Part shown: positions 7,005-24,000 of the stretch, in pieces | Layout of the letters: every line of letters begins with the position of its first letter | How positions within the stretch are numbered: position 1 is the stretch's first letter | NCBI RefSeq assembly: GCF_902859825.1 | Contig: NZ_CADIKB010000032.1 | Span: 2,026-26,025 of the forward strand | From: Paraburkholderia phenoliruptrix | GTDB lineage: Bacteria > Pseudomonadota > Gammaproteobacteria > Burkholderiales > Burkholderiaceae | Length of the DNA: 24,000 nt | Reading direction: 5' to 3' | Position numbers and translations under genes: made by a program | Notes under the pieces: generated by a model | Database searches by the model: none | Told to the model about the DNA's origin: nothing | What the model saw: only the letters and a program-made list of their open reading frames with translations

Positions 7005-8048
7005 AGCGGGGAACGCAGTGCCTTGCTGCGCGGCCATTCGGTGCGGGACTGTGATGGCAGGCTGACGATCGCGAGTTTCGTGAACAGGTTGATCTCGGCG
7101 TAGAGCGCAAAAAAGCGGTGCAGGAGTTCACCGAACAGCATCACGTCGCCTTCTCCCGCGAATGCGTGAGCGTCGAGCGTCACTTCGATCAGCACTCCCC
7201 GTTCGACCGAGCCGCCCGACACCTCTTCAAGCAGTTCCTCCGAGACGTGCAGGATGCCCGCGAGGCGGCGACGGTTCAGCTCGTCGTTGGTCCAGTCATA
7301 GAGCGCCAGTGCGCCGCGCAATACTTCCGCATCCATCATCGACAGGAAGTTCGGCGCGAGGTGCGAGAGCACGCGCCACTGGAAGCGGTCTCCGGTTGGC
7401 GGATACAGCGGCAACGTCGGCGCGGCGAGATTGCGCACGCCTGCCACGTTCGGCGTGCTCGCGGCAAGTTCGTTGATACTCGCCTCGCGCAACCCCTTGC
7501 GCGGCAGCATGCCGTTCGTGCCTGTCACACGCAGCGACAGGCTTTCCTCCGGCAGGTCCTGCATCGTCTCCCATGCGTGGCCACCGAGGATTACCCAGGT
7601 CTCGTGCAGGCCGGTGGCACCGGGGCGCACCCGCGAGTGAAAGTACCGCTCTGGCGCTTCGTGGCGCATCATGCCGCCGCGATGGCGGAAGGTGGCGAAC
7701 GGTACGTATTCATAGCGCTCCGCCGTTTCGTGATCGAACGACTCGATCGCGTCGACCGAGTAGGTTTCGACGTGTTCACCCTGGTGGCCCGCCGGCACGA
7801 CCCGGTATTCCGTCTCGTGGTGATTAACCGGGATCGTCTCGGCATCCAGCGTGAACAGGTTGATCACCGGCGTGCAGAAGAGGCGCACGTTCTCTGCCGT
7901 AAAGCGCTGGTCGGACGGATAGCTGTGCTTTAGCAGGATCTCCAGCTCGAAGCTGAACGCGTTCGCAGGCAGTTTCGCAATGTCCAGTCCGCACAGGTCA
8001 ATGAACAGGAATTTTTCACGAAAAGAAAAATATTCGAGTAATAGCTGG
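7001..8048 (-). pseudogene. tssF: tssF (ImpG/VasA) C-terminal fragment; N-terminal roughly 40 percent missing
   Basis: TssF-like sequence starts at (Y)QLLLEYFSFREKFLFIDLCGLD and runs to the stop at 7001, about 349 codons. My recollection is that intact TssF proteins are about 600 aa. The 47 codons upstream in the ORF (to 8203) are simply the antisense of hcp. Confidence 0.8.
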
Positions 8049-8324
8049 TACCTGTACAAGGCGGTCACGAGCGGCCAGACGCTCAAGTCGATCGAGATCA
8101 AGTGGTACAAGATCGACGACGCCGGCAAGGAAAAGGAATACTTCAACACGAAGCTCGACAACGTCAAGATCGTGGGTGTCACGCCGAAGATGCACGACAT
8201 CAAGAATCCCGCTTACGAGAAGCACAACCATCTCGAAGAGATCGAACTGCGCTACGAGAAGATTACCTGGTCGTACAAGGACGGCAACATCATTCACGCC
8301 GACAGCTGGAATGAGCGCTCGTAA
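8049..8324 (+). pseudogene. hcp: hcp/tssD C-terminal fragment; about 65-70 N-terminal codons missing
   Basis: YLYKAVTSGQTLKSIEIKWYKIDDAGKEKEYFNTKLDNVKIVGVTPKMHDIKNPAYEKHNHLEEIELRYEKITWSYKDGNIIHADSWNERS matches the C-terminal half of about 160-aa Hcp proteins that I recall. The upstream in-frame codons are the antisense of tssF. Confidence 0.8.
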
Positions 8325-8402
8325 AAATTTGTAAGAAGCAGGCCTCGGAAAGCCGGCACTGGCCCAACCGACTCCCCGTCAGTTGTGTGCCGGCATTCTT
8401 TT

Positions 8403-8433
8403 CGCCAGTTCACCCTGTGGACTGGCGTTTTTT
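8403..8433 (+). terminator. Rho-independent terminator after hcp
   Basis: CGCCAGT (8403-8409) pairs with ACTGGCG (8421-8427) across an 11-nt loop, followed by TTTTTT (8428-8433). Confidence 0.6.
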
Positions 8434-8481
8434 GTTGCCGGCGGACCCTCTCTCTGCCGCGCCCCAGGACCGGGTACCCAC

Positions 8482-11211: not shown

Positions 11212-11221
11212 GGTCAATGCG

Positions 11222-11653
11222 ATGCCCACCGGCCCCTCCCTCTACGACATGCTGCTCGGCCATATCGACGGCGAGCCGCTCGAAGCGCACGACGATAAAA
11301 CGCTCGAGATTCTCAGCGTGCAGGCAAATATCCGGCGCATTCTGAACGCGCGCGCCGGAGCGCTGAAGCACGTGCCCGACTTTGGGCTACCTGATCTCAC
11401 CGATGTGTACAGGAATCTTCCCGCCTCCGTTCACGACCTCAGGAACCAGATGGAGGCGACCCTGCTGAAGTTCGAGCCACGTATCCGGTCTATCGATGTC
11501 GAGATCGACGACAGGCCCGACCCCGGCCTGCTGGTCAGCTTCTGGATGACCTGTCACCTCAAAAAGGCCGGGCTCGTACGTTTCGGGACCTATTTCGAGC
11601 CGCAAGGACGTATGCGCGTGGAGCGGGTGCAGCCGCCCAAGCCGGGCCAGTGA
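11222..11653 (+). CDS. tssE: T6SS baseplate subunit TssE (gp25-like)
   Basis: MPTGPSLYDMLLGH...IRRILNARAGALKHVPDFGLPDLTD is a typical TssE/gp25 N-terminal region. It is 143 aa and starts 11 nt after the clpV stop. Confidence 0.85.
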   Translation: MPTGPSLYDMLLGHIDGEPLEAHDDKTLEILSVQANIRRILNARAGALKHVPDFGLPDLTDVYRNLPASVHDLRNQMEATLLKFEPRIRSIDVEIDDRPDPGLLVSFWMTCHLKKAGLVRFGTYFEPQGRMRVERVQPPKPGQ

Positions 11654-11675
11654 CGTCAGGCTGACTAACGACCGT

Positions 11676-11704
11676 GTCGACCTGCTCGCAAGTTCGCTTA
11701 GAAT
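11676..11704 (+). promoter_or_regulatory. Candidate sigma70-type promoter for the HU gene
   Basis: -10 TAGAAT (11699-11704). Weak -35 GTCGAC/TCGACC at 11676-11682, with a 16-17 nt spacer. It lies about 40 nt upstream of the HU start codon. Confidence 0.3.
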
Positions 11705-11745
11705 GGCGCGCAACGCCCAACTTATCGACAAGGAGAGTCTTCGAC

Positions 11746-12033
11746 ATGAATAAAACCGACCTGATTGACGCGGTTTCCGCACAAACGGATGTGAGCAAAG
11801 CGCAAGCTGGTGAGGCTCTCGACGCGGTTATCGACGCCATCACCAAGGCTGTCACCCGCGGCGAGACCGTGCAGTTGATCGGCTTCGGCAGCTTCAGCTC
11901 GGGTGCGCGCGCCGCGCGCACTGGGCGCAACCCGCAGACCGGTGCGGAGATCAAGATCCCGGCATCGAAAACCGTCAAGTTCACTGCCGGTAAGGCGTTC
12001 AAGGACGCTGTGAACAGCTCGAAGAAAAAATAA
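11746..12033 (+). CDS. HU family nucleoid-associated DNA-binding protein
   Basis: [11 protein letters not shown]...[12 protein letters not shown]...[33 protein letters not shown] is a classic HU/IHF fold signature. AGGAGA lies at 11731-11736. Confidence 0.9.
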
Positions 12034-12040
12034 GTCTTGC

Positions 12041-12073
12041 GGTGGCAGGCGGGTGCTCCGCCCGCTTGCCACC
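12041..12073 (+). terminator. Terminator-like hairpin after the HU gene
   Basis: 13-bp GC-rich stem (12041-12053 pairs with 12061-12073, one G.U pair) and a 7-nt loop. The downstream T-tract is weak (GTATTCGCGTGTTT). Confidence 0.45.
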
Positions 12074-12100
12074 GTATTCGCGTGTTTCCCACTCGTTTTC

Positions 12101-12571
12101 ATGTCCCGTTCATCCTCCCGCCACAGCAGCCGAAAACCGGCCCGCAAGCCGCTCACCCGCGACATGCTGCTGCCGCTGCCAGCCGCCACGGTACGTGCGG
12201 CCGCTCTCGAAAATCACCTCGCGCTCGTTGCGATGCGAACCGGCAATGGCAGCGTCGACCAGATGAGCTGTCTGCTCAAGGTCGCCTACCTCTCCTGGTT
12301 TCTTCTGGAAAAACCCGTCGATCGTGAACAGCATATCCACCTGTTGCACGCCAGCGAAACGGCGCTTCAGCAATGCGGGCTGCGTGCGCAGTCCGGACAG
12401 CCGTGGAGCCTACGGCAGGAGGAGATCGCGGATCTCGAATCCCTGCTCGCGTTGCATGACCGTCAACTGCATTCGGTATGCGCGCATCAATATCAGGCAG
12501 CGTGGGCCAGGCTGCAGCATTTTGTGAGCAGCGACGCACAGTCGCCGCTTCCTGCACGCCGGCCGTTGTGA
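12101..12571 (+). CDS. Hypothetical protein
   Basis: Likely start MSRSSSRHSSRKPARKPL at ATG 12101, with a basic N-terminus followed by a helical body. The ORF-track start at 12053 lies inside the HU terminator hairpin. Confidence 0.6.
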   Translation: MSRSSSRHSSRKPARKPLTRDMLLPLPAATVRAAALENHLALVAMRTGNGSVDQMSCLLKVAYLSWFLLEKPVDREQHIHLLHASETALQQCGLRAQSGQPWSLRQEEIADLESLLALHDRQLHSVCAHQYQAAWARLQHFVSSDAQSPLPARRPL

Positions 12572-12633
12572 CCATCTACTGCCAGCGGCGCCCGTGCACC
12601 AACGGCAGCCTGTGATGCGACTCCGGACGGCGC

Positions 12634-13233
12634 TCAGCCGTGGCTATCAAGCAGATCGCCCTGTCCAAGCGTAGAGCAAATGAATCCTGACATGCCTGCA
12701 TTCAGCTCGCGATAGCGGTCGGCGTTGGCGACCTTCCCGCGAAGCATTTTTCGCCACAAGGTCTCGCGGCGCTCGGCCGAAATATGAACCCACGGTGTGA
12801 GTACGATTCCAGCCTTGTCGTAGTCGCCCTGAGCTCGCATAGCTGCGTAGTTTTCCTCGATCGTAACGATGTGAACGGACTCGTAGTCAACCAGAGTGCG
12901 AACAAATTCGCCGGGATCATTGAGCTGGTCCCGGCGGTGTCGATCGACAAGTCCAGTAAGCGTCGTCTGGATCCGCTTGTAATGCTCAAGGCGCAAACCT
13001 GAGCCCTCGGCCGCAATGGCTGAATGCGAGACAAGCCCTGTAAATTGCCGAATTCGGCGTTTGACGCTCTCTGCCATGATGTGCGTGTACCAGGCACGAG
13101 CCCGTCCCGAAGTGACATTCGGACGGGAAGCGAGCCACATGATTTCTTCGTAGATCGAGACAAGCGCCGCTTGAAGGTCGGCGGGAATCTGCAGGTCTGC
13201 ATGGGGGAAAGGCTCGGTATTCAAGCTATCCAT
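12634..13233 (-). CDS. Hypothetical protein, last cistron of the R-M operon; possible His-Me/HNH-like motif (speculative)
   Basis: 199-aa ORF with protein-like composition. Its ATG (13233) overlaps the restriction-enzyme stop by 8 nt (ATGGATAG). It contains LRLEHYKRI ... VHIVTIEEN. Confidence 0.7.
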   Translation of the reverse strand: MDSLNTEPFPHADLQIPADLQAALVSIYEEIMWLASRPNVTSGRARAWYTHIMAESVKRRIRQFTGLVSHSAIAAEGSGLRLEHYKRIQTTLTGLVDRHRRDQLNDPGEFVRTLVDYESVHIVTIEENYAAMRAQGDYDKAGIVLTPWVHISAERRETLWRKMLRGKVANADRYRELNAGMSGFICSTLGQGDLLDSHG

Positions 13234-14473
13234 CCTGGCGCTCCCGCACTATCGCGACAAACTGCTCGACGTTCATCAGCCACGCCTGTTGCGAGGGCAC
13301 GTAGGTCTCATGCAGTTTGGTCGGCAGCACCAGTTGCAACCGCTTCGCTCGCATTTCGTCGGTCTGGTGAAGGGAAATGGCGGTCTCAAGGGTGAGCAGG
13401 TGCTTGTCCGCCACACGGTCCGCTTCAGCCAATACCTGTCTCCAGCGATCCTTGCAGGTCGACTTGACCCCAAGCATCGTTAAACGGATCGAGTCAAAGG
13501 TGTGATCGTGGTATTCGGCCTTTCCAGGAAACAGGAAATCCGGCTTCGACTTGTTTTCAGTCGCAGCCGTGCGCGCATACTGAATCCCGCTTTCTGCGAA
13601 GAGCAGTTCAAGGTGATTTTCGAGCGCGAGGCCGACCCGGCTCTTCCGGCGATTCTGCACGGACAACGAAAAGCTCAGGAAGCCCTCGACATCAGCGCCC
13701 TTCTCCGCATCGCCGCTAAAGCCTTTTGACAGGCGATCGGCAAGCAGATATCGCTCGAGCGTCCGGAAAAGTATCTCCTCGCGCTCCATCCACGCCATCA
13801 GCACCACGTCAGGATTTTCGTGCACGTTCAGGTCGTCGAGCGTCGAGCGTGCATATGCGGAGAACTCGCGCGTGGTAGGGAACTTGCCGCCAAAGCGCTT
13901 GAGCATCTCATCCAGATACGTTGCTTCGGAAGTTTCAACCGCGACGCCGATGCTCTCAAGAATGAAGCGGGATGCAAACTCGATCCGGTCCTGTTCCGTC
14001 TCCAGTTCCGACTTGACCGAAAAACCCGGATGCGCAAGATCGGCGAATCCGAAGAGCCACTCGATCTGCCGGGCGATGCTGGATCCGTTCTCGGCGATCA
14101 CCACAAGCAGACCGCCGTCGCGACGCTTGCCGATCACCAGCAGATCGCCCGTCGCTGCATTGAGCGAAACGTTCGTCGTCGGAAAGTACAGGCGGTATTC
14201 CCAGCGCTGCACGCCGCGTTCGAGCCGTGCCCGCTGGCGTGCGTCGTACCACGTGAATACCGCGTCTTCCATAATCGGATCGTCGTCCAGATCCGACAGG
14301 TAGAGCAGCTTCGCATCGTACCGAACTTTGCCGTCAGGCTCGCCCAGTATCGTGCGCAACCCTTCGACGCCATTGAACTCGTGCTGGTTCGACTGGATGA
14401 CGTCCGCTTCCACCGCACTCAGCCGTTTCGCGGCCACACCCTCGAAGTACTCGGACAGGTAACCCGCCTTCAT
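13226..14473 (-). CDS. Type II restriction endonuclease, EcoRII C-terminal catalytic domain family
   Basis: The C-terminal half aligns by eye with EcoRII as I recall it: VQNRRKSRVGLALENHLELLF...KPDFLFPGKAEYHD...LTMLGVKSTCKDRWRQVLAEADR. The ATG at 14473 ([10 protein letters not shown]) overlaps the vsr TGA (ATGA). The ORF-track start is 14512. Confidence 0.85.
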   Translation of the reverse strand: MKAGYLSEYFEGVAAKRLSAVEADVIQSNQHEFNGVEGLRTILGEPDGKVRYDAKLLYLSDLDDDPIMEDAVFTWYDARQRARLERGVQRWEYRLYFPTTNVSLNAATGDLLVIGKRRDGGLLVVIAENGSSIARQIEWLFGFADLAHPGFSVKSELETEQDRIEFASRFILESIGVAVETSEATYLDEMLKRFGGKFPTTREFSAYARSTLDDLNVHENPDVVLMAWMEREEILFRTLERYLLADRLSKGFSGDAEKGADVEGFLSFSLSVQNRRKSRVGLALENHLELLFAESGIQYARTAATENKSKPDFLFPGKAEYHDHTFDSIRLTMLGVKSTCKDRWRQVLAEADRVADKHLLTLETAISLHQTDEMRAKRLQLVLPTKLHETYVPSQQAWLMNVEQFVAIVRERQDG

Positions 14474-14919
14474 CCCCGTTGCTCCCATTTGCGCGTGCTG
14501 CTTCGCAGCCACCCAGCGAGTGCATCGGCTACTGCCTCCGCATCACACCCTTTGCCGCGCACCGCACATTCCCAGATGACACCGACCCGCCAGCCTGCGG
14601 CGAGCAGCGCATCATGCGCACGCTGATCATTCGTCTGGTTGCGACCGATTTTCTCGCGCCAGAACTCGACGCGCGTTGCCGGCCATTTGAAGTATCGACA
14701 GTCGTGCCCGTGCCAGAAACAGCCATGCACGAACACGACCGCATGATAGCGCGGGAGCACAAGATCCGGCTTGCCCGGCAGGTCGCGTGCGTGAAGGCGG
14801 AAGCGAAAGCCCCGCCGGTGCAGCAGGCTGCGAATGAGAATCTCAGGCCGGGTGTCGCGCCCCCGTATGCCGGCCATCATCCGGCTGCGGGTGACGCGGT
14901 CGACGACGTCGACCATCAT
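14470..14919 (-). CDS. vsr: Very-short-patch repair endonuclease Vsr
   Basis: [52 protein letters not shown] is the Vsr signature. Its start overlaps the methyltransferase stop (ATGA at 14916-14919). Confidence 0.9.
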
Positions 14920-16229
14920 TCAGCGTGCGCGAGCTCTTTTGCGACGGCCTGTCGCGCGGAGATCAGCGTCTTCATGTGCGGCACCAGGATGCGGGCGACT
15001 TCGCGCATCACGGGCATCACCACGCTGTTGCCGAACTGACGGTACGCCTGCGTATCGCTCACCGGAATCCGGAAGCTGTCCGGAAAGCCCATCAGTCGTG
15101 CGCACTCGCGCGGCGTTAGTCGCCGCGGCCGCTTGCCCTTGCCTTTGCCCTGAAAAACGAGGATCTCCGAGCCGTCTTTATAGTATCGGGCAGACAATGT
15201 GCGGGTTACGCTGTCCGGATAAACGAGTCCAAACCCAAAACCGTTGCCGGCCGCGCGATGCTTCTCTGCATAGCCTTGCAGATACTCCCACAGCTTCGGC
15301 GTCAGGGTGTACTTGGCTTGCACCTTAGCCTTGTCATGATCGAAGAAGCGGTCGCCATCCCATTCGAGAAGCGGCTCGCTGCCGTCGGTCTTGTGCAGGA
15401 TCGACGACAGGACCGGACCGTCCGCCGGCAGGCAAAGGTCGTCCCACGAGAACGCGGTCTCTTCGCGAAAGCCAACGATGACGATGCGCTCCCGGTGCTG
15501 CGGCGTGAAGTGCTGGCCGTCGATGATCTTGTAGTGCACGTCGTACTTGAGTTCGTCGCGCAGTACCGAAATGATCCGGCGGAAAGTTTCGCCCTTGTCA
15601 TGCGAGACGAGGTTTTTGACGTTCTCCAGCAGAAACGCTGCTGGCCGTTTGACGTCAATGATGCGCGCAACATCGTAGAAGAGCGTGCCCTGTGTCGTGC
15701 ACTCAAATCCATGGGGCCGGCCAAGCGAGTTTTTCTTGCTTACGCCGGCGATACTGAACGGCTGGCACGGAAAGCCCGCGAGCAGCACGTCGTGATCCGG
15801 CACGTTCTCAGAGAGGAACGGCACAATGTCGCCAACAAACTGGTGAGTGTCGCTGGAATCGCCGAAGTTCTCGACGTAGGTCTTGCGGGAGAAATCGTTC
15901 CACTCGCTGGTAAAGATGCAGTGGCCACCGTAAGTTTCAAACCCCTGACGGATGCCGCCGATGCCGGCGAAGAGATCGATAAAGCGGAATCCGCTTTCCT
16001 TCCACGGGACGTCCTTGTTCGCCCTGCCCTCCAGCATGTCACGGAGCGCCGCCTCGGCGATGACGGGACAGGGCGTTTCCTGTGACTCCCAACGTCTGAT
16101 GGTCTTGATATCCTTGCCGACCCGTTCGGCGATTTCGCGCTGACTGTATATCTGTCGAACCTGCTTGAGCAGGGTGTGCGAATCGGCTACGGTCATGTTG
16201 ATTTTCTCGCTGGGAATTTTTGCGGACAT
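14916..16229 (-). CDS. dcm: DNA (cytosine-5) methyltransferase, Dcm/M.EcoRII family (predicted CCWGG specificity)
   Basis: Motif [13 protein letters not shown], motif [54 protein letters not shown]. It is collinear with E. coli Dcm as I recall it. The start [18 protein letters not shown] parallels Dcm MQENISVTDSY. The N-terminal region has an HTH-like segment ([18 protein letters not shown]). Confidence 0.9.
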
Positions 16230-16441
16230 TTTGACCTTGGGCCACGCTCGTGTCCAGCGTTTTTTGGAATGACCTTCCACTCCGTGTGCCCAACGCCCAT
16301 GATCTGCGATAGTTTGGTGTTGGTAGCTGCGAGTGGGGCACTCAAGAACATCCGGTCGTGATTGTCCACCCGCCCCTCGAGCAGGCCCTGTTGATGAAAG
16401 CGCGTCTTGAGTCGGTGTAAAGCAGTGGCCATGGGCTTCAT
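16193..16441 (-). CDS. Possible small HTH protein (controller-like); uncertain
   Basis: 82-aa ORF filling the gap between the 1136-aa gene and dcm. The ATG at 16441 overlaps the upstream TGA. It has an HTH-like segment [16 protein letters not shown]. The first 55 or so codons have mostly G/C at the third position. The last 25 or so codons are Lys/Pro-rich and overlap the dcm start. Confidence 0.3.
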
Positions 16442-19400
16442 GAAAAGTTCCTGCTGGTTCGGTCCGCCGTATCGTCGCGTGCCGGAACATCACCTGCTTC
16501 GTCCGATACGGCTTCAGGGATCGGCGTCTGCCACATCACATACAGCGTGTTGACCGCTCCTTCCCCGTGCTCGTAACCATAGAACACTTCGCGTCCACCC
16601 AACCCAACGCTGTACGGTGGCGCCGGGAACCCGGAGGCATCGCGGGTTATGTCGTGCCTCGATGGAGACCGACGCTGCGACGCGTCCGCTTGGACTTTTT
16701 CGACATGTCGGTAAATGTCGTCGCGGTTCGACATGAAGTGCTGACCACTGTCGTCCGATGGAAACGCCACTGCCGCCATGTTGTTATCCAGCGCGAAATG
16801 CTGGGCCACTTCCAGGAACGATTGCACGACTGACTCGGCATCGTAGCGCACGTCCGTGTCTTCGACCGTGTTAATCGCCCGCATTACCAACGTTGCGCGA
16901 TGCGGATCGATCGCTTTGATGCGCTCGACGTAGAGCATCGCCATGCCCACCAGCCGCATGGTCAACGGATCGAACACGACCAGATGTGACTGCCGTTCTT
17001 CGCGCCACATGCGCACGTTGTTTGCCGAGCAGAGCCTGGTTGCTACCTTGGCGAAGTACGCCGCCGGATGTTTCGACACGAACGCAACGTATTCTGCCTC
17101 GCTTTCCCTCCCCGAGGGGCGGCCTTCGAAAGCGTTGAGTTGCCGGTGGGTCCATGCACCGTGGATGCCACGTACCTTTTCCGCAATTTCGCCCAGCACG
17201 GCAGCCAACCGCTCGCGCGTCTGCATCCGGTTGTCATTGCCCGGCGATCCCGCGAGGCGGGTTGCCAACTTGCCGGCCGCTTCGTCGCTCAAGCTCCCGG
17301 CGATTCCTGTGACCTGCTCCCTCATAACGTCGAACAGCCCGATGTCAAAAAAGGCCGCGATGCGCTCCGCTGCGGCGTAACGCTGATCAACATCGTTCGC
17401 CTGTGCTTCCAGTGTTTCGATGTCGTTAAGCAACGCCTCCGTTACCTCGACAGGAAGGACGCCGAGGAGCACGCCGAGGTGCCGGTAAAACGTCTGCGGG
17501 TTGGCCGAGGCGTCACCCAACTGCTTCGGTGACAATCCCTGGCATCCATTGAGCACGTTGGCTTCCGCTTCCCGGCGAAAGGTCACGCCGTATGCGATAG
17601 CATCGCGGATCGCATCCACTCCATCCGAGTCGATCCGGCCTTTCAGTACAACGGGTCTGCGGCGCCACACCATAGTGTAGTGATCGCGCCGCACGAGGGA
17701 GTCGAGATGACTTTCAAGTCCTGCTACACCTGACCATCGCGAGTCCGCTTCGCGCAGCTCGACGCTGTAGACGGCCTCAATCGCGTCTGCCTGAAGCTGC
17801 GAAAGGGTCGTGGTGGCTGGCCCCTGCCCGCGCAGGAGCGTTTCCACTTCCACTCGGAACGCGACGAGTTGCCGTTCGTATTCATGCTCGCCGGTCAGGT
17901 ACGCGGTGATCAGGCTGGCGGCCAGCATGCCTCCGGTAGCATCGAGTTGCCTTTTCAGGCCCGGGAGGATGCGGGCATGGATGCCGGGTTCCAGCGTCTG
18001 CCAATGCTGCCAGTATGCGTGACGCGCCTCCTCGTCCTCTACGTCGGTCGGGCTGCCCAGCAACCTGTAGCGCTCGTCCCACATGGCCGATGTCAGCGCG
18101 CCAAGGTTGCCGCCGACAAACGAAAAGTTTCCGCGGCTGGACGCATCGTCGACGAGCAATCTCGATACGGGCTGTCGCCAGTTGACCCCTGCGAGGTGCT
18201 CGATGCCACGCGACTTCTGCCGCCAGGCGCGCAATGCGTGCACGGTCCGTAGCCCGCGCGCCTCGACCGCGTACTCCAGCAGGCTGCGATCGATCTGGGC
18301 CAGTGGCCGGATTTCGTCGAACGCCGCGCGATCGGGCACCGGCAGGACCGAGACAAGATACTCGAGCGCATCGATGCGCTTCGCCCCGATGTTTCGCATC
18401 CATGCGGCGACTGATTCCGGTTGTTTGGCCGCGTTGCGCAACGCTCCATACATCGTCAACAGCCGGTCCAGATTGCGCGCCGACGTACCGTTCGCATACA
18501 GATCCTGAAATGCGAGCACACCGGCCGGCATGCCAAATCCATGTTGCGCGAGCGTCCGAAGGTAGTCAGCCAGATCATCGCCGGAACGTTGTGTCACGTA
18601 GGCACGGCATGTCGCGAGTTCACCAAACTTGAGTGAGTGCGGTGCCGAACACAGCAGCTCGATAGAATGGCGCGGATCACGATTACGCTCAGCCATCTGC
18701 AGAAGAAGCGACTGCAGGCCGGAAAGATCTTCAAGGGTTGCGCCACGCTCGCGCAGCTCGCGCACCGTCTCTTCGTCAGGCAGTTTTTCTTCTTCCAGGA
18801 TTCGGGTGAACAGGCACCACTGCTGCGGATCCTTTGCACCGATCACGTCAATTACGAAATCCCAGTTATCCGGACGCGCGCGCCAGAGCCACTCGTCCAG
18901 CGCTTCGAAGAGTTGCGCCACATCGACGTGCTGACGCGCGGAAAGCGTTCTCACCGTGCGATCGAGGCGTGCCGGATCGCAGCGCCGCCAGCACCCGAGT
19001 ACCTTCAGTGTCTGCTGACGGGGCACGCCGAGTTCAAGCAGGCGACGAATGGTCTTCGGGCCGTCGTCATCCCAATTGACGTCCCAGTTGTGGCCCTCGT
19101 TCCGTTCGCGCCAAGGTTCAAGCCACTGTAGCTCGTCGACGGATCGAATGACTCGCAGACCAATAAGAACGGCGAGCTTTTCCGGCGGGAAACTTCGCCA
19201 GATTCCGCAGAACACCGCATGCAGTTGTTCGGAGGTCTTGATTCCAAGATGCCACGCGTTGCGCGCGGTCACCAAGTCGAAGTACTGCAGGTCGTCCAGT
19301 ACTGCCAGACTGCGTGGTGCCGTGAACTTCCGTGCAATGAAATCCAGTCCTTCGCCGTAGTAGGGTTTTTTCATGCATGCAGGACCGGCAAGCCGCTCAA

Positions 19401-19848
19401 AGACAAGTTCACGTCCTTCGGGTGTGCCTACAGAGCGAAGGCGGCTTGCTGCCAGTCGAAGCGTCCACACCGGAAAGAACGCCGACAGAAGGAAAACGCT
19501 GATCTTGACAGGCCACGAGATCTGCACCGGCACGTGATCCGGAATTCGCAGCGCGCGTCGGGCAAGGTCTGCAACGGGTGACTGCGGAGCGCACAGCTCG
19601 TCAACACTGCTCGCGACAGACTCACGAAACGCCTTGATGATCCGGCGACCATAGGCAAGCCCTCGTCGTGGACTATCCTCGTATCCATACCGGACCCTCG
19701 ACGATTCCGAACGCCGCTCCTCAAGCCTCCACCTCGCGTACTCCGTCTCCAGTTGCTGCTTGCGGAAAGCGCGATACGCGTCTCTCTCGTCCCAAGATGG
19801 AGTACCGGTCGAGTGAGGGCCAGAATTGTGCGTCGAGGTTGTGGTCAT
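16438..19848 (-). CDS. Large orphan protein (1136 aa), no recognisable catalytic motif
   Basis: An uninterrupted 3.4-kb ORF with protein-like composition. One hydrophobic segment lies near residue 115 ([21 protein letters not shown]). The middle is long and helical with a recurring L-x3-G-hydrophobic motif. The C-terminal alpha/beta-looking region spans about 250 aa. I found no Walker A motif. Confidence 0.8.
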
Positions 19849-20208
19849 AGGCTGGTCTCGCTATAGGGGCGGGCGCGTGGCTGCTTGTCGTTCGTCTTTT
19901 CGCCGCCGTGCGCAATCAGCGTGCGGCGGTACTGGTCATTATCAATGAGCAACTGATAAAAGGGGTCGTACAACGGTCAGTGCTGTACAGGCCGCGTGTC
20001 GGCCCCCGGACTGATTGGCCGGTGCGCCGGTGCGCCGGTACCCGAAGCCGATCCCGCAATCGTCTGACGAAGACCGGCCCGCAGGGCGTGAAGCGTCGGG
20101 CACGCCGGAACTACAGAAAATCAAGTGAGAGCTGCAGATTCTTCGGGTTGTGCATACAGCCTCGGGTGCGCAATGGTGCACATTTTTTCGAGATAAGCGC
20201 TACACTGG

Positions 20209-20230
20209 ACACTGTATATTCATACAGTGT
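20209..20230. promoter_or_regulatory. LexA SOS box (CTGT-N8-ACAG type)
   Basis: ACACTGTATATTCATACAGTGT. CTGT is at 20212-20215 and ACAG at 20224-20227. By my count, 16 of 20 positions match the consensus TACTGTATATATATACAGTA as I recall it. Confidence 0.7.
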
Positions 20231-20239
20231 TTTTGTCCA
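20211..20239 (-). promoter_or_regulatory. Candidate sigma70 promoter overlapping the SOS box, firing towards the 1136-aa operon
   Basis: On the minus strand: -35 TGGACA (20239-20234), a 17-nt spacer, then -10 TACAGT (20216-20211). The -10 and the spacer lie inside the LexA box. Confidence 0.4.
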
Positions 20240-20365
20240 TGAGCGCCCTGCCCCGTCACCCTGAAGAAATCCACCCCGCACTGTGGACCTATACCCGTGG
20301 AGTACATAGTTTGAGGGCGAAAAGCGGGAGAGCGTTCTGCGGTGGGGTCGCCAAGGACTCACCGT

Positions 20366-20387
20366 TTCGATGTATGCATACATCGAA
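20366..20387. repeat. Perfect 22-bp palindrome with an extra arm copy
   Basis: TTCGATGTATGCATACATCGAA is its own reverse complement. A third copy of the 7-mer TACATCG lies at 20389-20395. CGTTTCG direct repeats lie at 20363-20369 and 20394-20400. Confidence 0.8.
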
Positions 20388-20412
20388 CTACATCGTTTCG
20401 GTTATCCGCTGT

Positions 20413-21075
20413 TCAGGCTCCGAGGATCTTTCGTATTGCACGCGCGAAGCCGACATCGAACACAGTCCGACCGTGTTCGTTCACGATCTCGCCATGGCTG
20501 CCTTCGTGTAAGCCGTGTCCTTCAAGGTAGTCGGCAGAGACCGCCTTCTCCAGCGCTTCACGTTCTGAAGGAGTGAGCTGCGCGTCGTTGCCGTTCGTCG
20601 TTGTTGGCAACACGATGGCGGCTCCTGGACCGCGTACACCGATTGGGCGCCGGTCCACGACGACTTGAGCGTTGGACTTCAGAAGGTTGACCTCGGCCCG
20701 GAGCTTGTCTCGCTCCCCGATGATCGCTTGCATGATGGAGCGGATCGCGGGGTCTTGAATACGCATGAGGTATTCGTGGCTTGCCGGCGGTTTCGATGAT
20801 TGAAGCGTCGGTGGCCCGGCATACGTTGCCCAGGACGAAATCAGCTTGCGGTAGTCCGCCGATTGCATGTTGTAGAGGACGCGCCCCTTTAGGATGCCTT
20901 CCGTCTCAACCAGGCGACCAATGGTTGAGAGAGAAAAATCGCTCGAGCCTGATTCCTGATGCCTGCGACAAATCTCATGCAGCGCTGTCAGCCTAGCAAG
21001 CCGATGAGCGCGGCCGCCTTTGGCGAGCAGCGTGTCAAGAACAATGTCCGGGTGACCGATTGTCGGGCTGTTCAT
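20413..21075 (-). CDS. Third gene of the recombinase trio (GmtX-like by position); function unknown
   Basis: Start MNSPTIGHPDIVLD at ATG 21075 overlaps the TGA of the 868-aa gene (ATGA). It is 220 aa. The ORF-track upstream extension is His/Arg-rich and unlikely to be coding. Confidence 0.7.
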   Translation of the reverse strand: MNSPTIGHPDIVLDTLLAKGGRAHRLARLTALHEICRRHQESGSSDFSLSTIGRLVETEGILKGRVLYNMQSADYRKLISSWATYAGPPTLQSSKPPASHEYLMRIQDPAIRSIMQAIIGERDKLRAEVNLLKSNAQVVVDRRPIGVRGPGAAIVLPTTTNGNDAQLTPSEREALEKAVSADYLEGHGLHEGSHGEIVNEHGRTVFDVGFARAIRKILGA

Positions 21076-23678
21076 CCTTGCGACTCGTCGATGGATTGAG
21101 GCTTGCGCGTGAGCATGTCGGTGGCGTTGCAATCCGGCATAAGCGTGGCGAAATCGACGCCAAATCGCTCGCTCAAGCTCTGGCCAGCATCCATCAAATT
21201 GATGACCTGCCGCGTTCCCAACACCGGATTGGCGGGGTTCATCTGCCGTGCGAGACGGCGCATGAATGCGTTGCCGACGCGGAGTTGCTCTTCCTCACTC
21301 AGCATCATGAAGACGGGCGACAGGTTATCGCGATATAGCACAGCATCGAGCAACTGACTACGACGGAATATCGCCTTGCCTGCATCGAGATCAGGATAGA
21401 GCTCGACGTCTTCGCAAACCCCAGCAAGCTGAAGCAATTCCGATTCGGTGTCTTCAAACGCGATATGCACATCGCTCGCGGTGCCCACGGCCACCAGTTG
21501 AGTAGAGTCTTCGACGACCCGGTCGAGCGCGGCCTTACAGCGTTCAATGAGCCGCCAACAAGCGGTGAGATCCTCCGCGAAGTCGTTGAATCGCTTCATC
21601 GATCCTTCCCACACGCGCTCTGCTTGCCGAAAGGTATCGAGATGAAGGAAGACTTCGCCAGCGTCTTCAGCGTCAGCCTTCTGCTTCTTCAGGTCAAGAA
21701 GCACGCCCTCATTCGCGAGGCAAGCATTGCGGGCCTCGTCGAAATGGTAGGCGATCGTGTTGAAGTGCGCGGCGAGCGATGGAAGGTAGTGAGGCTCCGT
21801 CACAAACCAGCGGCATCGAACGCAGTTGCGATTCCCTCCCGGAACGGGAGCGTGTTTTGCGTTGCCAACAGCTGTACCTGGCAGAACCATCGGACCGCCG
21901 TTGTGGCATCCACCAATCGAACGGTTTTCCATCGAATCGCTGGCGTTTCCGCCAGCGAGGCACAGGCCGTGGTGCATTGGCATCCAGCCCAACGCGTTTC
22001 TTGCCGCTGGATGCTCAGCGATTGCATCTGCAACACTGCTCGCACTATTGCAGATCGCGCTTTGCACAAGTTCCTCGTGCGCAGTATCGAGCAGGAAATT
22101 CTGAATGCTCGCATTCTTATTTGCATCCAGGCGAGCCTTCGCATCGAGGAGGACGTCGCGAATATGGGTGGCTCCAGGCTTGGTGTAATACAAGGTCATG
22201 ACCAACCGGCTATGACCGACAAGCTTCTGCAGCACAGGGAACGGCACCTGGCCTTCCAAGGCCAGCGCGGTGACAAGGGAGACTCGCAAACTGTGAAGTG
22301 GGAACAACGTCCTCTTCTTGGATTGGGGCGGCAGCAGCCGAATCGGCGTTCCATTGTGGTGAGTCTCGGAACGCACGGCGAGCCGTGATTCAAATGCCTT
22401 CAGCAAATGGAACCAGCACGAATTGAGCGCCTGATCCTGAAGCGGAAAGTTGCGCATTTGTGCCGTTGGGTATTCTGGCAATCGGAAGAGAAAGCACGCG
22501 TCGGGATAGCGCGCCAACTGGAAATCAGTCTTGACGATGATATGTCGACGATCAAGTTCTGCCCATGAGGTCCGACGCGAGATGGGGTTGTACTTCTCTT
22601 GCCAGTTGCGCAGCTTCTCGATCCAGTAGAAAACATTCTGGTGAACCGCTCCGCCGTGCATCCACGGCAGCAAATAGCCCTTCTCTGGCCCTGACTTCGA
22701 AACATCGGCGGTCTTGTTCGTGTTGATATACAGGACCACTAGTGCGTCCTCGCTGCTGCTGCGATCATCGTCGCGCCGGAACACACCCTGCTGTAGCGGT
22801 CGAGATTCGCTACCCTGCGCAATCTCGTTGCTGTTCAGTTCCCAACGACCCGCCATATAGCGCCAGGTGTCTGCCTCTCCAGAGTCAAGCACACGGACCT
22901 GGCTAGTGCGTAACGGCAAGATGAGCTTCACAAGCAATGCGACCCAGCGCACTGGACTCCACATCTGCAACACTTGACCACCGCGATAGTTTCGACTCAG
23001 CTTACGTATGCGCCACACGCAATCCGGATCGTCGCGATCAATCTCGTCTTCGGTCACGTCGAACCAATCAGGCGCGCTCGCACCCATATGGCCGATCTTG
23101 CTCCCCAGCGCGCCTTGCGCCCATTGCCAGTCGCGAAAATGGGGTCCCGCCGCCAGCATCTGCCGAAGTTGGTCGATGTAGCCATAAGGCAGCGGTGAAT
23201 AAACGCTCTCGCCGCGCTTCGGCAACCCCGCTTTCGACATACGACGTACCGGGTTGTGATAGCCCTGCATTAATACGGCGTTATCGTCTTTACCAATCTG
23301 ACTGAAATGCCGAAGCAACACAAACTGCAGAAAAGCGTGGATAAGATTATTCGCGCTGATGCCCCAAGGAGAGTCAGTACACGCCGTTCGGTGAAATTCT
23401 GGAACCTGTGTCGTTTGCGCCAGGAATACACTCGGATCCAGTGGCAGGCTCTGCAGAATGAGGTAGCGCTCGAAGAAAGTCGATAGGGCCTGCAGTCTTT
23501 GGTGTAGACCATGTGTTTCCCCACCGAGCCACTCCAAGGCGAAGACTCTCCAGGCTGCAAGTTCTGGATAGAACTCCACCACCCAGGCCAGGGTTGCATC
23601 CGAATCGCGTCGCATGCTGCGCTCGGTCCTTGCCGCCTTGCGACGCCCCTTGGGTTTAGTTGGAGAGGTCTTGTACAT
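21072..23678 (-). CDS. Giant tyrosine-recombinase/integrase-family protein (GmtZ / VPA1269-like by recollection)
   Basis: Catalytic signature in the middle of an 868-aa protein: LILPLRTSQVRVLD (Arg I), LHSLRVSLVT (HxxR), LVGHSRLVMTLYYTK (His...Tyr nucleophile). A long C-terminal extension contains CVRCRWF. Confidence 0.85.
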   Translation of the reverse strand: MYKTSPTKPKGRRKAARTERSMRRDSDATLAWVVEFYPELAAWRVFALEWLGGETHGLHQRLQALSTFFERYLILQSLPLDPSVFLAQTTQVPEFHRTACTDSPWGISANNLIHAFLQFVLLRHFSQIGKDDNAVLMQGYHNPVRRMSKAGLPKRGESVYSPLPYGYIDQLRQMLAAGPHFRDWQWAQGALGSKIGHMGASAPDWFDVTEDEIDRDDPDCVWRIRKLSRNYRGGQVLQMWSPVRWVALLVKLILPLRTSQVRVLDSGEADTWRYMAGRWELNSNEIAQGSESRPLQQGVFRRDDDRSSSEDALVVLYINTNKTADVSKSGPEKGYLLPWMHGGAVHQNVFYWIEKLRNWQEKYNPISRRTSWAELDRRHIIVKTDFQLARYPDACFLFRLPEYPTAQMRNFPLQDQALNSCWFHLLKAFESRLAVRSETHHNGTPIRLLPPQSKKRTLFPLHSLRVSLVTALALEGQVPFPVLQKLVGHSRLVMTLYYTKPGATHIRDVLLDAKARLDANKNASIQNFLLDTAHEELVQSAICNSASSVADAIAEHPAARNALGWMPMHHGLCLAGGNASDSMENRSIGGCHNGGPMVLPGTAVGNAKHAPVPGGNRNCVRCRWFVTEPHYLPSLAAHFNTIAYHFDEARNACLANEGVLLDLKKQKADAEDAGEVFLHLDTFRQAERVWEGSMKRFNDFAEDLTACWRLIERCKAALDRVVEDSTQLVAVGTASDVHIAFEDTESELLQLAGVCEDVELYPDLDAGKAIFRRSQLLDAVLYRDNLSPVFMMLSEEEQLRVGNAFMRRLARQMNPANPVLGTRQVINLMDAGQSLSERFGVDFATLMPDCNATDMLTRKPQSIDESQG

Positions 23679-23706
23679 GTGTTTGCTCGGTCACGTGGAG
23701 ATGTGG

Positions 23707-24000
23707 CTAGTCAGATGAACGGACCAAATCCGACAGAGGCGTCGTAAGAAGTCCATCCAGCCGGTGCGCCGCTTGCTGAAGTGCTTCTCGGGCTTCGCTA
23801 AAGCTTGCTTGTGTGTAAATCTCCTGGCTCTCGATCGAGGCGTGATGCATGAAGCGGCGAATCATCGGCTTCTCGATTCCCGCGTGCTTCAAACGCTGGC
23901 CGTAGGCGTGTCGGTGCCCGTGCGGAGTTGTGCCAAGCGCCTTGCCAACTTCGAGGCCAATGCGTTTGCACGCGGCCGCGTGAGCCTTGTTGTATTGCGT
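23707..24000 (-). CDS. Tyrosine recombinase/integrase; partial, N-terminus lies beyond the window end (GmtY-like by position)
   Basis: My own translation stays open to position 24000: ...GKALGTTPHGHRHAYGQRLKHAGIEKPMIRRFMHHASIESQEIYTQ. This gives the HxxR box and the H...Y box. The stop TAG is at 23707-23709. Confidence 0.85.
   Translation of the reverse strand, partial: TQYNKAHAAACKRIGLEVGKALGTTPHGHRHAYGQRLKHAGIEKPMIRRFMHHASIESQEIYTQASFSEAREALQQAAHRLDGLLTTPLSDLVRSSD

What the first reader, a model, noticed from the sequence alone, without database searches (positions are those of the whole stretch)
16438..19848. 1136-aa orphan protein with no recognisable catalytic motif as first gene of the R-M operon
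I found no Walker A/B, no obvious PD-(D/E)xK, HNH, HEPN, TIR or methyltransferase motifs by eye.

**What is visible:**
- a charged N-terminus
- one hydrophobic, possibly transmembrane segment ([21 protein letters not shown])
- a long helical middle in which a motif L/M-x3-G-hydrophobic-x4-hydrophobic recurs: [74 protein letters not shown]
- a C-terminal globular-looking region of about 250 aa: [40 protein letters not shown]...

The repeat motif suggests a solenoid or repeat scaffold. The size, island location and operon position make this the strongest candidate for a novel sensor or effector.
Basis: seen in the sequence. Interest (0 to 1): 0.8.

Follow-up and report, generated by a model that had tools for sequence, protein, structure and literature searches.

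The report
Helical protein with hidden acyltransferase-like domain
The 1136-residue "orphan" is a real, conserved gene of an unannotated family: about 900 residues of helices end in a divergent GNAT-like (acyltransferase-fold) domain. It is not part of the neighbouring restriction-modification operon, and it travels as a single gene through plasmids and variable islands, so it is a reasonable but untested candidate for a new conflict protein.

Summary
The ORF (16438..19848, minus strand, 1136 aa) is intact and under purifying selection. dN/dS is 0.21 against its Paraburkholderia fungorum orthologue, including the N-terminal 105 residues.

**Not an orphan.** An exhaustive profile search found 258 cluster representatives. 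About 55 are full-length, from Beta- and Gammaproteobacteria, and every member looked up is named "hypothetical protein". No Pfam, NCBIfam, PADLOC, PHROG or PDB-sequence match exists.

**Structure.** An AlphaFold model from 52 sequences (pLDDT 85) is all-alpha to about residue 905. Residues 907-1107 have the GNAT strand/helix order. Nearly all top Foldseek PDB hits are GNAT acetyltransferases (probability 0.95-1.0, weak E-values).
- The canonical Q/RxxGxG/A loop is missing.
- C940 and N1041 are invariant.
- The same domain ends 34 otherwise unrelated long proteins, some of them archaeal.

- The "repeat" is one internal duplication (199-315 vs 334-446).
- The "transmembrane" segment is not conserved.

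**Not an R-M gene.**
- In P. fungorum the same gene is followed by a different cassette.
- No neighbour is conserved across 25 loci.
- Neighbours are often defence systems, T6SS toxin clusters or mobile-element genes.

**Best reading.** A stand-alone sensor/scaffold plus acyltransferase-like effector. The function is inferred, not shown.

The parts
16438..19848 (-). Complete gene, 1136 aa plus stop. It belongs to an unannotated family of about 1080-1140-aa proteins.
   Evidence: ORF list and translation. Homologues align over the full length. dN/dS is 0.21 against the P. fungorum orthologue.
19432..19794 (-). Residues 19-139: N-terminal long helices.
   Evidence: AF2 model secondary structure. 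The hydropathy is not conserved in homologues.
18904..19254 (-). Residues 199-315: copy 1 of an internally duplicated helical module of about 115 aa, built of Gly-turn hairpins (includes [15 protein letters not shown]).
   Evidence: HHalign of family sub-alignments gives probability 93%, E = 2.8e-7 over 109 columns.
18511..18849 (-). Residues 334-446: copy 2 of the duplicated helical module (includes [14 protein letters not shown] and [15 protein letters not shown]).
17134..18171 (-). Residues 560-905: region of long helices plus one beta-hairpin (724-735). It carries family-invariant N581, G640, G674 and W705.
   Evidence: AF2 model. Invariant columns of the 52-sequence alignment.
16528..17130 (-). 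Residues 907-1107: C-terminal GNAT-like alpha/beta domain. C940 (17029..17031) and N1041 (16726..16728) are invariant. K926, H955, R990 and N993 are near-invariant.
   Evidence: The AF2 strand/helix order matches GNAT topology. Foldseek PDB and viral hits are GNAT acetyltransferases. Conservation comes and coordinates. The domain also occurs alone at the C-terminal end of 34 long unrelated proteins.
16441..16512 (-). Residues 1113-1136: low-confidence, poorly conserved tail.
   Evidence: pLDDT is below 50. dN/dS is 0.37. The tail is variable in the alignment.

Best explanation
The gene encodes a stand-alone, horizontally mobile accessory protein. It is not an R-M subunit.

**Shown**
- About 900 residues of alpha-helices contain one duplicated module of about 115 aa.
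- A conserved domain of about 200 aa follows, and its predicted fold is GNAT-like (acyl-CoA N-acyltransferase type).
- The conserved residues cluster where GNATs bind cofactor and acceptor: the end of beta4 (R990, N993), the start of alpha3 (S1006), the start of alpha4 (S1040-N1041), and alpha1-alpha2/beta2 (K926, FFAK, C940, W948, E950, R952, H955).
- The gene has no conserved partner.
- It lies on plasmids, ICEs, a Tn7-like element and variable islands, often next to defence systems or T6SS toxin clusters.

**Inferred**
- The C-terminal domain is an active acyl-transferase with a non-canonical cofactor loop. It possibly works through an acyl-Cys940 intermediate.
- The helical region is the target-binding or sensing part that holds the enzyme in check.
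- When triggered, for example by an invading phage or plasmid, the enzyme acylates a core macromolecule and stops growth of the infected cell. The model for this step is the small GNAT toxins, which acetylate aminoacyl-tRNA.
- In this window the gene merely borders a hotspot into which an EcoRII/Dcm/Vsr cassette has been inserted.
For: **The gene is real**
- The ORF is intact, with dN/dS 0.21.

**A family exists**
- The profile search gave 258 hits. About 55 are full-length representatives in Paraburkholderia, Burkholderia, Caballeronia, Ralstonia, Cupriavidus, Roseateles, Massilia, Duganella, Pseudomonas, Pectobacterium, Mixta and Gallionellales.

**Fold**
- The AF2 model has pLDDT 85 and pTM 0.65.
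- The order b-a-a-b-b-b-a-b-a-b-b at 907-1107 is GNAT topology.
- The top 50 Foldseek PDB hits are almost all GNATs: PaiA, NatD, RimI, AAC(2'), Hat1, and the toxins AtaT/TacT. Probabilities are 0.95-1.0 and target-normalised TM reaches 0.62.
- The viral library gives the same result.

**Conservation**
- C940 and N1041 are invariant in both alignments.
- W948, E950, R952 and R990 are invariant in the 52 full-length sequences, and R990 is near-invariant in the wider C-domain set.
- K926, H955 and N993 are at least 90% conserved.

**Modularity**
- The domain alone ends 34 long proteins whose N-terminal parts do not match the family profile.

**Independence from the R-M**
- The cassette is swapped in P. 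fungorum.
- No neighbour is conserved.

**Conflict-type neighbourhoods**
- EcoRII R-M in this window.
- Avs2, Lamassu, an E2-E1-JAB protein, DpdF/SNF2, an Eco57I-type methylase-helicase, ABC-3C, mad3 and WYL in 12 distant loci.
- DUF4238 and FRG proteins on the B. cenocepacia plasmid.
- HEPN_Swt1, and a Pkinase-AAA_11/12 protein.

**Mobile carriers**
- A Tn7-like element.
- TrwC- or TraI-type ICEs and plasmids.
- 13 Burkholderiaceae plasmids.
Against: - **No activity data of any kind.**
- **GNAT assignment rests on a predicted structure only.**
  - Foldseek E-values are weak (0.09-0.9).
  - No GNAT profile matches by sequence, and HHalign against RimI gives nothing.
  - The Q/RxxGxG/A pyrophosphate loop between beta4 and alpha3 is absent. 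The only RxxGxA string (R965-A970) lies in predicted beta3 and is not kept in distant members.
  - The domain could therefore use another donor or be a pseudo-enzyme.
- **Not a known defence protein.** PADLOC has no model for it.
- **Defence neighbours are not universal.** Four of 12 distant loci had no PADLOC hit among the flanking ORFs tested. No background-corrected enrichment statistic could be computed.
- **Distant relatives look housekeeping.** Three carriers of the C-domain sit among housekeeping genes, two of them on archaeal-looking contigs. The domain is therefore not intrinsically a conflict effector.
- **Local inheritance looks vertical.** In Paraburkholderia the gene is syntenic with imuA-imuB-dnaE2 at similar identity to its flanks (87.7 vs 89.7%).
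Confidence: 0.45

Rival explanations
1. It is a secreted toxin or effector, for example a T6SS cargo. The helical part would serve loading and translocation, and the C-terminal GNAT-like domain would be the toxic warhead acting in a target cell.
For: - In Ralstonia plasmids and chromosome the gene is last, on the same strand, in VgrG-DUF4123-DUF3304-Tle1-small ORF-gene.
- On the B. cenocepacia HI2424 plasmid it converges on a VgrG-hydrolase-Tli4-PAAR cluster.
- L003 has PAAR-DUF4123-Tox-REase-5-Imm52 nearby.
- Imm33 and Imm35 genes are nearby in L002 and L005.
- An eCIS_core/Ntox4 toxin lies in L017.
- This window has T6SS core genes less than 2 kb beyond the R-M cassette.
- A C-terminal domain shared by proteins with unrelated N-terminal parts is the polymorphic-toxin pattern.
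Against: - No conserved downstream immunity gene exists in 25 loci.
- No PAAR, Rhs, VgrG, MIX-type or other trafficking domain is detected in this protein or in 17 C-domain relatives.
- Only 1 of 110 neighbour ORFs in 12 distant loci is a VgrG.
- The C-domain also occurs in archaeal-looking contigs among housekeeping genes.
Confidence: 0.15
2. It is an ordinary cellular or regulatory protein, or a pseudo-enzyme. A large helical scaffold would carry a degenerate GNAT-like domain that binds a ligand or acylates an endogenous substrate, with no role in conflict. The island context would simply reflect accessory-genome location.
For: - The canonical acetyl-CoA loop is missing.
- Distant carriers of the domain sit in housekeeping neighbourhoods: fibrillarin, an A-type ATPase operon, NifS/NifU and glycosyltransferases.
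- In Paraburkholderia the gene is vertically syntenic with imuAB-dnaE2.
Against: - Distribution is patchy, and the gene is carried on conjugative or mobilisable plasmids, ICEs and a Tn7-like element.
- Decayed copies exist.
- Polar residues (Cys, Asn, Arg, His, Lys) are strongly conserved at the GNAT active-site positions.
- Defence or toxin neighbours recur.
Confidence: 0.2
3. It is a mobile-element establishment or anti-defence factor. The plasmid or ICE would express it to acylate and disable a host factor, or to modify nucleic acid as the GNAT-fold Mom protein of phage Mu does.
For: - It lies on plasmids and ICEs, close to relaxase genes (L005 TrwC; Ralstonia relaxase/LPD7).
- A GNAT-fold DNA-modifying anti-restriction enzyme is a known precedent (Mom, PMC7261163, listed).
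Against: - No phage homologue exists in 50,697 phage records.
- Many copies are chromosomal with no transfer genes nearby.
- No positional link to oriT or leading regions was shown.
Confidence: 0.1
4. This is the first reader's reading: it is the first gene (sensor, regulator or accessory subunit) of the EcoRII-like R-M operon.
For: It is on the same strand as, and directly upstream of, the Dcm-like methyltransferase, Vsr and EcoRII-C endonuclease genes.
Against: - A 208-nt gap separates it from the methyltransferase start.
- The methyltransferase has its own N-terminal HTH. In the EcoRII/SsoII methylase group this kind of HTH autoregulates transcription (established knowledge, not tested here).
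- The orthologue in P. fungorum keeps the gene but has a different cassette, with homology ending 10 nt after the stop.
- No other family locus has this R-M.
Confidence: 0.03

Closest known systems
GNAT (Gcn5-related N-acetyltransferase) superfamily. Best structural matches: PaiA 1TIQ, NatD 4UA3, RimI 7N1L, DpA 8A9O.
   Same: - The predicted strand/helix order of residues 907-1107 matches.
- Conserved residues lie at the end of beta4, the start of alpha3, and in an S-N pair at the start of alpha4 (compare the SN of RimI motif B).
- Foldseek probabilities are 0.95-1.0.
   Different: - No sequence-profile match to any GNAT family.
- The Q/RxxGxG/A loop is replaced by a longer N-P/T-x8-D-x2-S loop.
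- A Cys is invariant in the alpha1-alpha2 region.
- The beta5-alpha4 loop carries an insertion.
- The domain is fused behind about 900 aa of helices.
GNAT toxins of type II toxin-antitoxin systems (TacT, AtaT, ItaT, KacT)
   Same: - The fold class is the same, and these toxins are among the Foldseek hits (7BYY, 7F37, 7AK8, 7CHD, 6G96).
- They offer a plausible effector logic: acylation of a translation component. This is inferred.
   Different: - Those toxins are about 170 aa, have the canonical acetyl-CoA motif, and are always paired with an RHH antitoxin gene.
- Here there is no antitoxin gene and no conserved neighbour. The domain is the tail of a 1136-aa protein.
Single-protein defence enzymes with a large helical sensor (DSR2: SIR2 + HEAT-like repeats) or fused toxin-sensor proteins (CapRel)
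   Same: - One gene of about 1000-1100 aa, with a helical region plus one enzymatic domain.
- No immunity gene.
- Located in defence islands and mobile elements.
   Different: - No homology, and no PADLOC hit.
- The enzyme class is different.
- The domain order is the reverse of DSR2.
- The analogy concerns how it may work. It is not membership.
T6SS cargo effectors in VgrG-DUF4123 auxiliary clusters (e.g. Tle1 lipases)
   Same: - It sits next to such clusters in Ralstonia, B. cenocepacia and L003, and near T6SS core genes here.
- It is large, with a C-terminal enzymatic module.
   Different: - No immunity partner and no adaptor gene immediately upstream of it.
- No recognised loading motif.
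- Most family loci lack T6SS genes.

Membership tests
GNAT acyl-CoA N-acyltransferase superfamily | Core topology b1-a1-a2-b2-b3-b4-a3-b5-a4-b6(-b7) | tested here: met
   In the AF2 model (pLDDT about 85-95 in this region) the elements are: E917-925, H928-936, H945-948, E953-960, E965-976, E985-994, H1004-1021, E1026-1030, H1043-1057, E1079-1082, E1101-1107.
GNAT acyl-CoA N-acyltransferase superfamily | Structural similarity to solved GNAT enzymes | tested here: met
GNAT acyl-CoA N-acyltransferase superfamily | Motif A: Q/R-x-x-G-x-G/A pyrophosphate-binding loop between beta4 and alpha3 | tested here: not met
   The beta4-alpha3 stretch is [21 protein letters not shown], and the family consensus is LVxR[AG][IF]N[PT]-x8-D-x2-S. 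The only RxxGxA string (965-970) lies in predicted beta3 and becomes G-N-[VI] in distant members.
GNAT acyl-CoA N-acyltransferase superfamily | Significant sequence-profile match to a GNAT family model | tested here: not met
   No Pfam or NCBIfam hit for the protein. Of 31 C-domains, one reaches Acetyltransf_1 at E = 0.017. The PDB profile search finds no GNAT. HHalign against RimI gives probability 0.1%.
GNAT acyl-CoA N-acyltransferase superfamily | Binds an acyl-CoA and transfers the acyl group | not testable with these tools
   This requires biochemistry.
Type II R-M operon component (EcoRII/Dcm/Vsr type) | Conserved linkage with the methyltransferase and endonuclease genes | tested here: not met
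   The cassette is replaced in the 89.8%-identical P. fungorum locus. No shared neighbour exists in 25 loci.
T6SS effector / polymorphic toxin | Adjacent cognate immunity gene | tested here: not met
   The small downstream ORFs are unrelated to one another. No conserved neighbour exists.
T6SS effector / polymorphic toxin | Linkage to VgrG/PAAR/adaptor genes, or an N-terminal trafficking domain | tested here: inconclusive
   There is linkage in Ralstonia (same strand), B. cenocepacia and L003. It is absent from most loci. No trafficking domain is detected.
Known anti-phage defence families (PADLOC-DB 2.0) | Match to a defence-protein model | tested here: not met
   No hit at E <= 0.1.
GNAT-RHH type II toxin-antitoxin | Small toxin (about 170 aa) with an adjacent RHH antitoxin gene | tested here: not met
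   The domain is the tail of a 1136-aa protein. There is no conserved partner gene.

The most novel reading that the evidence does not exclude
The family would be a new single-gene immune (abortive-infection or plasmid-exclusion) system. A helical sensor of about 900 aa would gate a previously unrecognised GNAT-like acyltransferase domain that lacks the P-loop and depends on a Cys. That domain would itself define a new family spanning Proteobacteria, UGA-recoded candidate-phylum bacteria and archaea.
Probability: 0.25. Interest if true: 0.75.

Novelty: new variant of a known kind. Interest (0 to 1): 0.5.

Why it matters
If the inference holds, this would add acylation by a divergent GNAT-like domain to the effector chemistries used by one-protein immune or conflict systems. 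It would also give a name and a fold to a domain that no curated library currently models. That domain ends large unannotated proteins in bacteria and archaea.

In practice, three points follow:
- The R-M cassette here is an independent EcoRII/Dcm/Vsr module dropped into a hotspot.
- The large gene should be tested on its own.
- C940, H955, R990 and N1041 are the residues to mutate.

If it turns out to be a pseudo-enzyme or an ordinary accessory protein, the finding is of modest interest.

Tried and rejected
**Searches that found nothing**
- Sequence-family searches with the protein in Pfam, NCBIfam, PADLOC and PHROGs gave nothing.
- PDB sequence searches gave nothing usable.
  - The single-sequence search found nothing.
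  - The full-length profile found only a PPR protein at E = 0.92.
  - The C-domain profile found only alphavirus macro domains at E about 0.6. I judged these chance, because the predicted topology is GNAT and not macro.
- tblastn against phage genomes found no match.
- Two literature searches for GNAT defence or T6SS effectors found nothing describing this family.

- The word-indexed homologue search returned only 8 relatives, and the same 8 when given the 52-sequence alignment. The exhaustive profile search was needed to see the family.
- The first AF2 run, with 8 sequences, gave pLDDT 59.9 and an unusable C-terminal model. It was superseded by the 52-sequence run.

**Ideas considered and dropped**
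- A conserved small downstream ORF (antitoxin, immunity or chaperone). The ORFs after the gene in five loci are unrelated.
- A transmembrane anchor.
The count is at chance level.
- Cargo of the Gmt integrase element.
- A MIX-like RxGhhY string at residues 61-67. It is kept only in close homologues and not in the 52-sequence consensus.
- Pfam scans of 17 proteins that share only the C-domain found nothing informative.
Full report
**1. The observation**

All quoted peptide strings are present.

It is a real gene. Against its orthologue in Paraburkholderia fungorum (same length, 88.7% amino-acid identity), Nei-Gojobori dN/dS is 0.21 overall. It is 0.18-0.23 in each region, including residues 1-105.

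A metagenome annotation of the identical sequence started at GTG codon 106. Three observations support the long form instead:
- Family conservation starts at about residue 22; Y25 and R29 are at least 90% conserved.
- The N-terminal dN/dS indicates purifying selection.
- Nucleotide homology with P. fungorum begins 20 nt before this ATG.

There are no hits in Pfam, NCBIfam, PADLOC or PHROGs, or in PDB chain sequences.

**2. It is not an orphan**

The word-indexed search found only 8 relatives. The exhaustive profile search of 1.84 billion cluster representatives found much more:

| E-value cut-off | Hits |
|---|---|
| <= 1e-3 | 258 |
| <= 1e-10 | 144 |
| <= 1e-30 | 85 |

- About 55 hits are full-length (1080-1140 aa) and align end to end.
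- A genome scan names the hosts: Paraburkholderia, Caballeronia, Cupriavidus, Ralstonia, Roseateles, Massilia, Duganella, a Gallionellales MAG, Pseudomonas, Pectobacterium, Mixta and Apirhabdus. Cluster look-ups add Burkholderia species.
- Every member looked up in the cluster look-up, and every annotated plasmid copy, is called "hypothetical protein".

**3. Anatomy**

With 8 sequences, AlphaFold gave a poor model (pLDDT 59.9). With 52 full-length sequences it gave pLDDT 85.0 and pTM 0.65.

*Helical region.* Residues 19-904 are all-alpha.
- Its hydropathy is marginal (1.72) and is lost in distant members, which are Arg/Trp-rich there. A membrane anchor is therefore unlikely.
- Profile-profile comparison of family sub-alignments does show a true internal duplication. 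Residues 199-315 match 334-446 over 109 columns (probability 93%, E = 2.8e-7).
This is a two-copy module, not a solenoid.
- No solved structure resembles the helical part in Foldseek. Better libraries were not available.

*C-terminal domain.* Residues 907-1107 are alpha/beta with the order b-a-a-b-b-b-a-b-a-b-b, which is the GNAT topology.
- In Foldseek against PDB, nearly all of the top 50 hits are GNAT acetyltransferases. Examples are PaiA, NatD, RimI, AAC(2')-Ia, Hat1, and the tRNA-acetylating toxins AtaT and TacT.
- Probabilities are 0.95-1.0 and target-normalised TM reaches 0.62. E-values are weak (0.09-0.9) for this 1136-residue query.
- The viral-protein library gives the same answer.
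- Sequence methods do not see the relationship.
- The hallmark Q/RxxGxG/A loop between beta4 and alpha3 is replaced by N-[PT]-x8-D-x2-S.
- The conserved residues nevertheless sit where GNATs bind cofactor and acceptor:

| Position in the fold | Conserved residues |
|---|---|
| End of beta4 | R990, N993 |
| Start of alpha3 | S1006 |
| Start of alpha4 | S1040-N1041 |
| alpha1-alpha2/beta2 | K926, FFAK, C940, W948, E950, R952, H955 |

- C940 and N1041 are invariant even in the broad set.

I therefore call the domain GNAT-like in fold. I do not file it as a member of any GNAT sequence family.

**4. The C-terminal domain is a separable module**

- Of 156 retrieved proteins, 137 match a C-domain profile and 99 match the N-terminal profile.
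- Thirty-four proteins of 600-1850 aa carry only the C-domain, always at or near their C-terminal end.
- Seventeen of them have no informative Pfam domain.
- Some come from archaeal-looking contigs, next to fibrillarin and diphthamide synthase, or next to an A-type ATPase operon. These have housekeeping neighbours.
- Several metagenomic members have Trp at conserved Gly positions (RWFNP for RGFNP). I read this as UGA-as-Gly lineages translated with another code.
- The domain is therefore old and widespread. It is not intrinsically a toxin.

**5. Context in this window**

| Feature | Coordinates (strand) | Evidence |
|---|---|---|
| Gap between the gene and the methyltransferase | 208 nt | |
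| Dcm-like C5 methyltransferase with N-terminal HTH | 14916..16229 (-) | |
| Vsr | 14470..14919 (-) | |
| EcoRII-C endonuclease | 13226..14473 (-) | |
| Overlapping 199-aa unknown ORF | 12634..13233 (-) | |
| LexA box | 20212..20227 | |
| imuA remnant | 20239..20286 (+) | |
| GmtX | 20413..21132 (-) | |
| GmtZ | 21072..23678 (-) | |

A metagenome contig (L007) is 99.99% identical to window 6438..20286 and then continues with intact imuA-imuB. The Gmt element is therefore a separate insertion into imuA, and the 1136-aa gene is not its cargo.

In P. fungorum (L004, L008, plasmid pBIL):
- The gene is again next to imuA, imuB and dnaE2. The flank is 87.7% identical and the gene 89.7%.
- The DNA after its stop codon is a different cassette, DUF5623 plus hypothetical genes.
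- Homology to the window ends 10 nt past the stop and resumes at 12333-12607.

The R-M module (about 12608..16427) is thus an independently acquired cassette in a hotspot that the big gene borders. It is not an operon partner.

**6. Context elsewhere**

All-against-all comparison of ORFs in 25 loci finds no conserved neighbour. The small ORFs after the gene are unrelated to one another.

*Mobile or variable carriers:*
- A Tn7-like element (L001).
- IS and RepA regions (L003).
- A TrwC element (L005).
- TraI_2/DUF4400-type ICE genes.
- 13 Burkholderiaceae plasmids.
- No phage carries it.
- Decayed copies exist in Apirhabdus and in B. thailandensis and B. savannae plasmids.

*Defence-type neighbours.* Among 110 flanking ORFs of 12 distant loci there are:
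- Avs2, Lamassu and an E2-E1-JAB protein.
- DpdF/SNF2 and an Eco57I-type methylase-helicase.
- A C5 methylase, ABC-3C CTD1, mad3 and WYL.
- The B. cenocepacia plasmid copy follows DUF4238 and FRG proteins.

*T6SS and toxin neighbours.* These also recur:
- VgrG-DUF4123-DUF3304-Tle1-small ORF-gene in Ralstonia.
- A convergent VgrG-hydrolase-Tli4-PAAR cluster in B. cenocepacia.
- PAAR-DUF4123-Tox-REase-5-Imm52 in L003.
- An eCIS/Ntox4 toxin in L017.

*Limits.* Four of the 12 loci showed no PADLOC hit in the flanking ORFs tested. I could not compute a background-corrected enrichment.

**7. Most likely mechanism**

*Shown:*
- A single-gene unit.
- A conserved helical region with a duplicated module.
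- A conserved C-terminal domain of GNAT-like predicted fold, with invariant polar residues at the expected active-site positions.
- Mobility, and a conflict-type neighbourhood.

*Inferred:*
- The C-domain transfers an acyl group from an acyl-CoA or related donor, possibly via Cys940.
- The helical part binds the target or senses a trigger and restrains the enzyme.
- Firing arrests the cell by acylating a core macromolecule, as the small GNAT toxins do with aminoacyl-tRNA.

I put this at 0.45 overall, and at about 0.25 for the specific "new defence system" reading.

*Rivals:*

| Rival | Confidence |
|---|---|
| Cellular protein or pseudo-enzyme with no conflict role | 0.20 |
| Secreted (T6SS) effector | 0.15 |
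| Mobile-element establishment or anti-defence factor | 0.10 |
| Component of the R-M operon | 0.03 |

**8. Comparison, novelty and score**

- The closest known fold is the GNAT superfamily. Topology and structural similarity are met. Motif A and any sequence-family match are not met.
- The closest functional analogies are the GNAT toxins of TA systems, and single-protein defence enzymes with helical sensors such as DSR2 and CapRel. These are analogies only.
- No curated library models the protein or its C-domain.
- I rate it a new variant of a known kind, with interest 0.5. It is a well-defined, testable candidate with named catalytic residues.

Noticed in passing
window 20287..24000 (GmtX 20413..21132 -, GmtZ 21072..23678 -); imuA remnant 20239..20286 +: A gamma-mobile-trio element is inserted 48 nt into imuA. 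GmtZ matches NF047926 at E = 5.6e-299 and GmtX matches NF040692 at E = 1e-68. An otherwise 99.99% identical metagenome contig (L007) lacks the element and has intact imuA-imuB. GmtY would lie beyond the window end.
   Followed up: partly
window 20212..20227; L008 9856..9875: This is the only CTGT-N8-ACAG LexA-type box in the window. It lies between the imuA remnant and the 1136-aa gene. The only promoter-like hit that points towards the gene (20239..20211, minus strand) overlaps it. In P. fungorum the box is 126 nt upstream of the gene's ATG. SOS control of the gene is possible but untested.
   Followed up: partly
window 12608..16427: A self-contained R-M cassette holds an HTH-Dcm-like C5 methyltransferase (14916..16229), Vsr (14470..14919) and an EcoRII-C endonuclease (13226..14473). 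The N-terminal 248 aa of the endonuclease do not match EcoRII-N. The whole cassette is replaced by a DUF5623 cassette in P. fungorum pBIL, so this is a cassette-exchange hotspot.
   Followed up: partly
window 12634..13233 (-): A 199-aa ORF overlaps the endonuclease stop by 8 nt. It has no hit in Pfam, NCBIfam, PADLOC or PHROGs. It may be a fourth, unknown component of the R-M cassette.
   Followed up: no
window 5883..12033: T6SS core genes lie just beyond the cassette: TssG and TssF (minus strand), ClpV (8482..11211 +) and TssE/GPW_gp25 (11222..11653 +). An HU-like gene follows (about 11746..12033 +). In P. fungorum the locus is on a megaplasmid of about 440 kb.
   Followed up: partly
L027 8001..13553; L034 8001..13373; L035 8001..11753: Proteins of 1250-1850 aa share only the C-terminal GNAT-like domain and sit among housekeeping genes. 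Two are on archaeal-looking contigs, one next to fibrillarin and one next to an A-type ATPase operon. The domain is far older and wider than the proteobacterial family.
   Followed up: partly
C-domain sequences extracted from metagenomic hits: Several members have Trp exactly at conserved Gly positions (KNIWSFFAK, RWFNP, VWNIMLY). This suggests lineages that read UGA as Gly but were translated with UGA as Trp.
   Followed up: no
window 19868..20110; L009 9870..9974: A leader of about 100 nt directly upstream of the ATG is shared with the Caballeronia orthologue (75% over 106 nt). It is missing in P. fungorum. It may be a regulatory region.
   Followed up: no
L023 9372..14680; plasmid hits H12, H13: Decayed copies exist. 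The Apirhabdus gene is split into several ORFs, and the B. thailandensis and B. savannae plasmids retain only N-terminal pieces.
   Followed up: no
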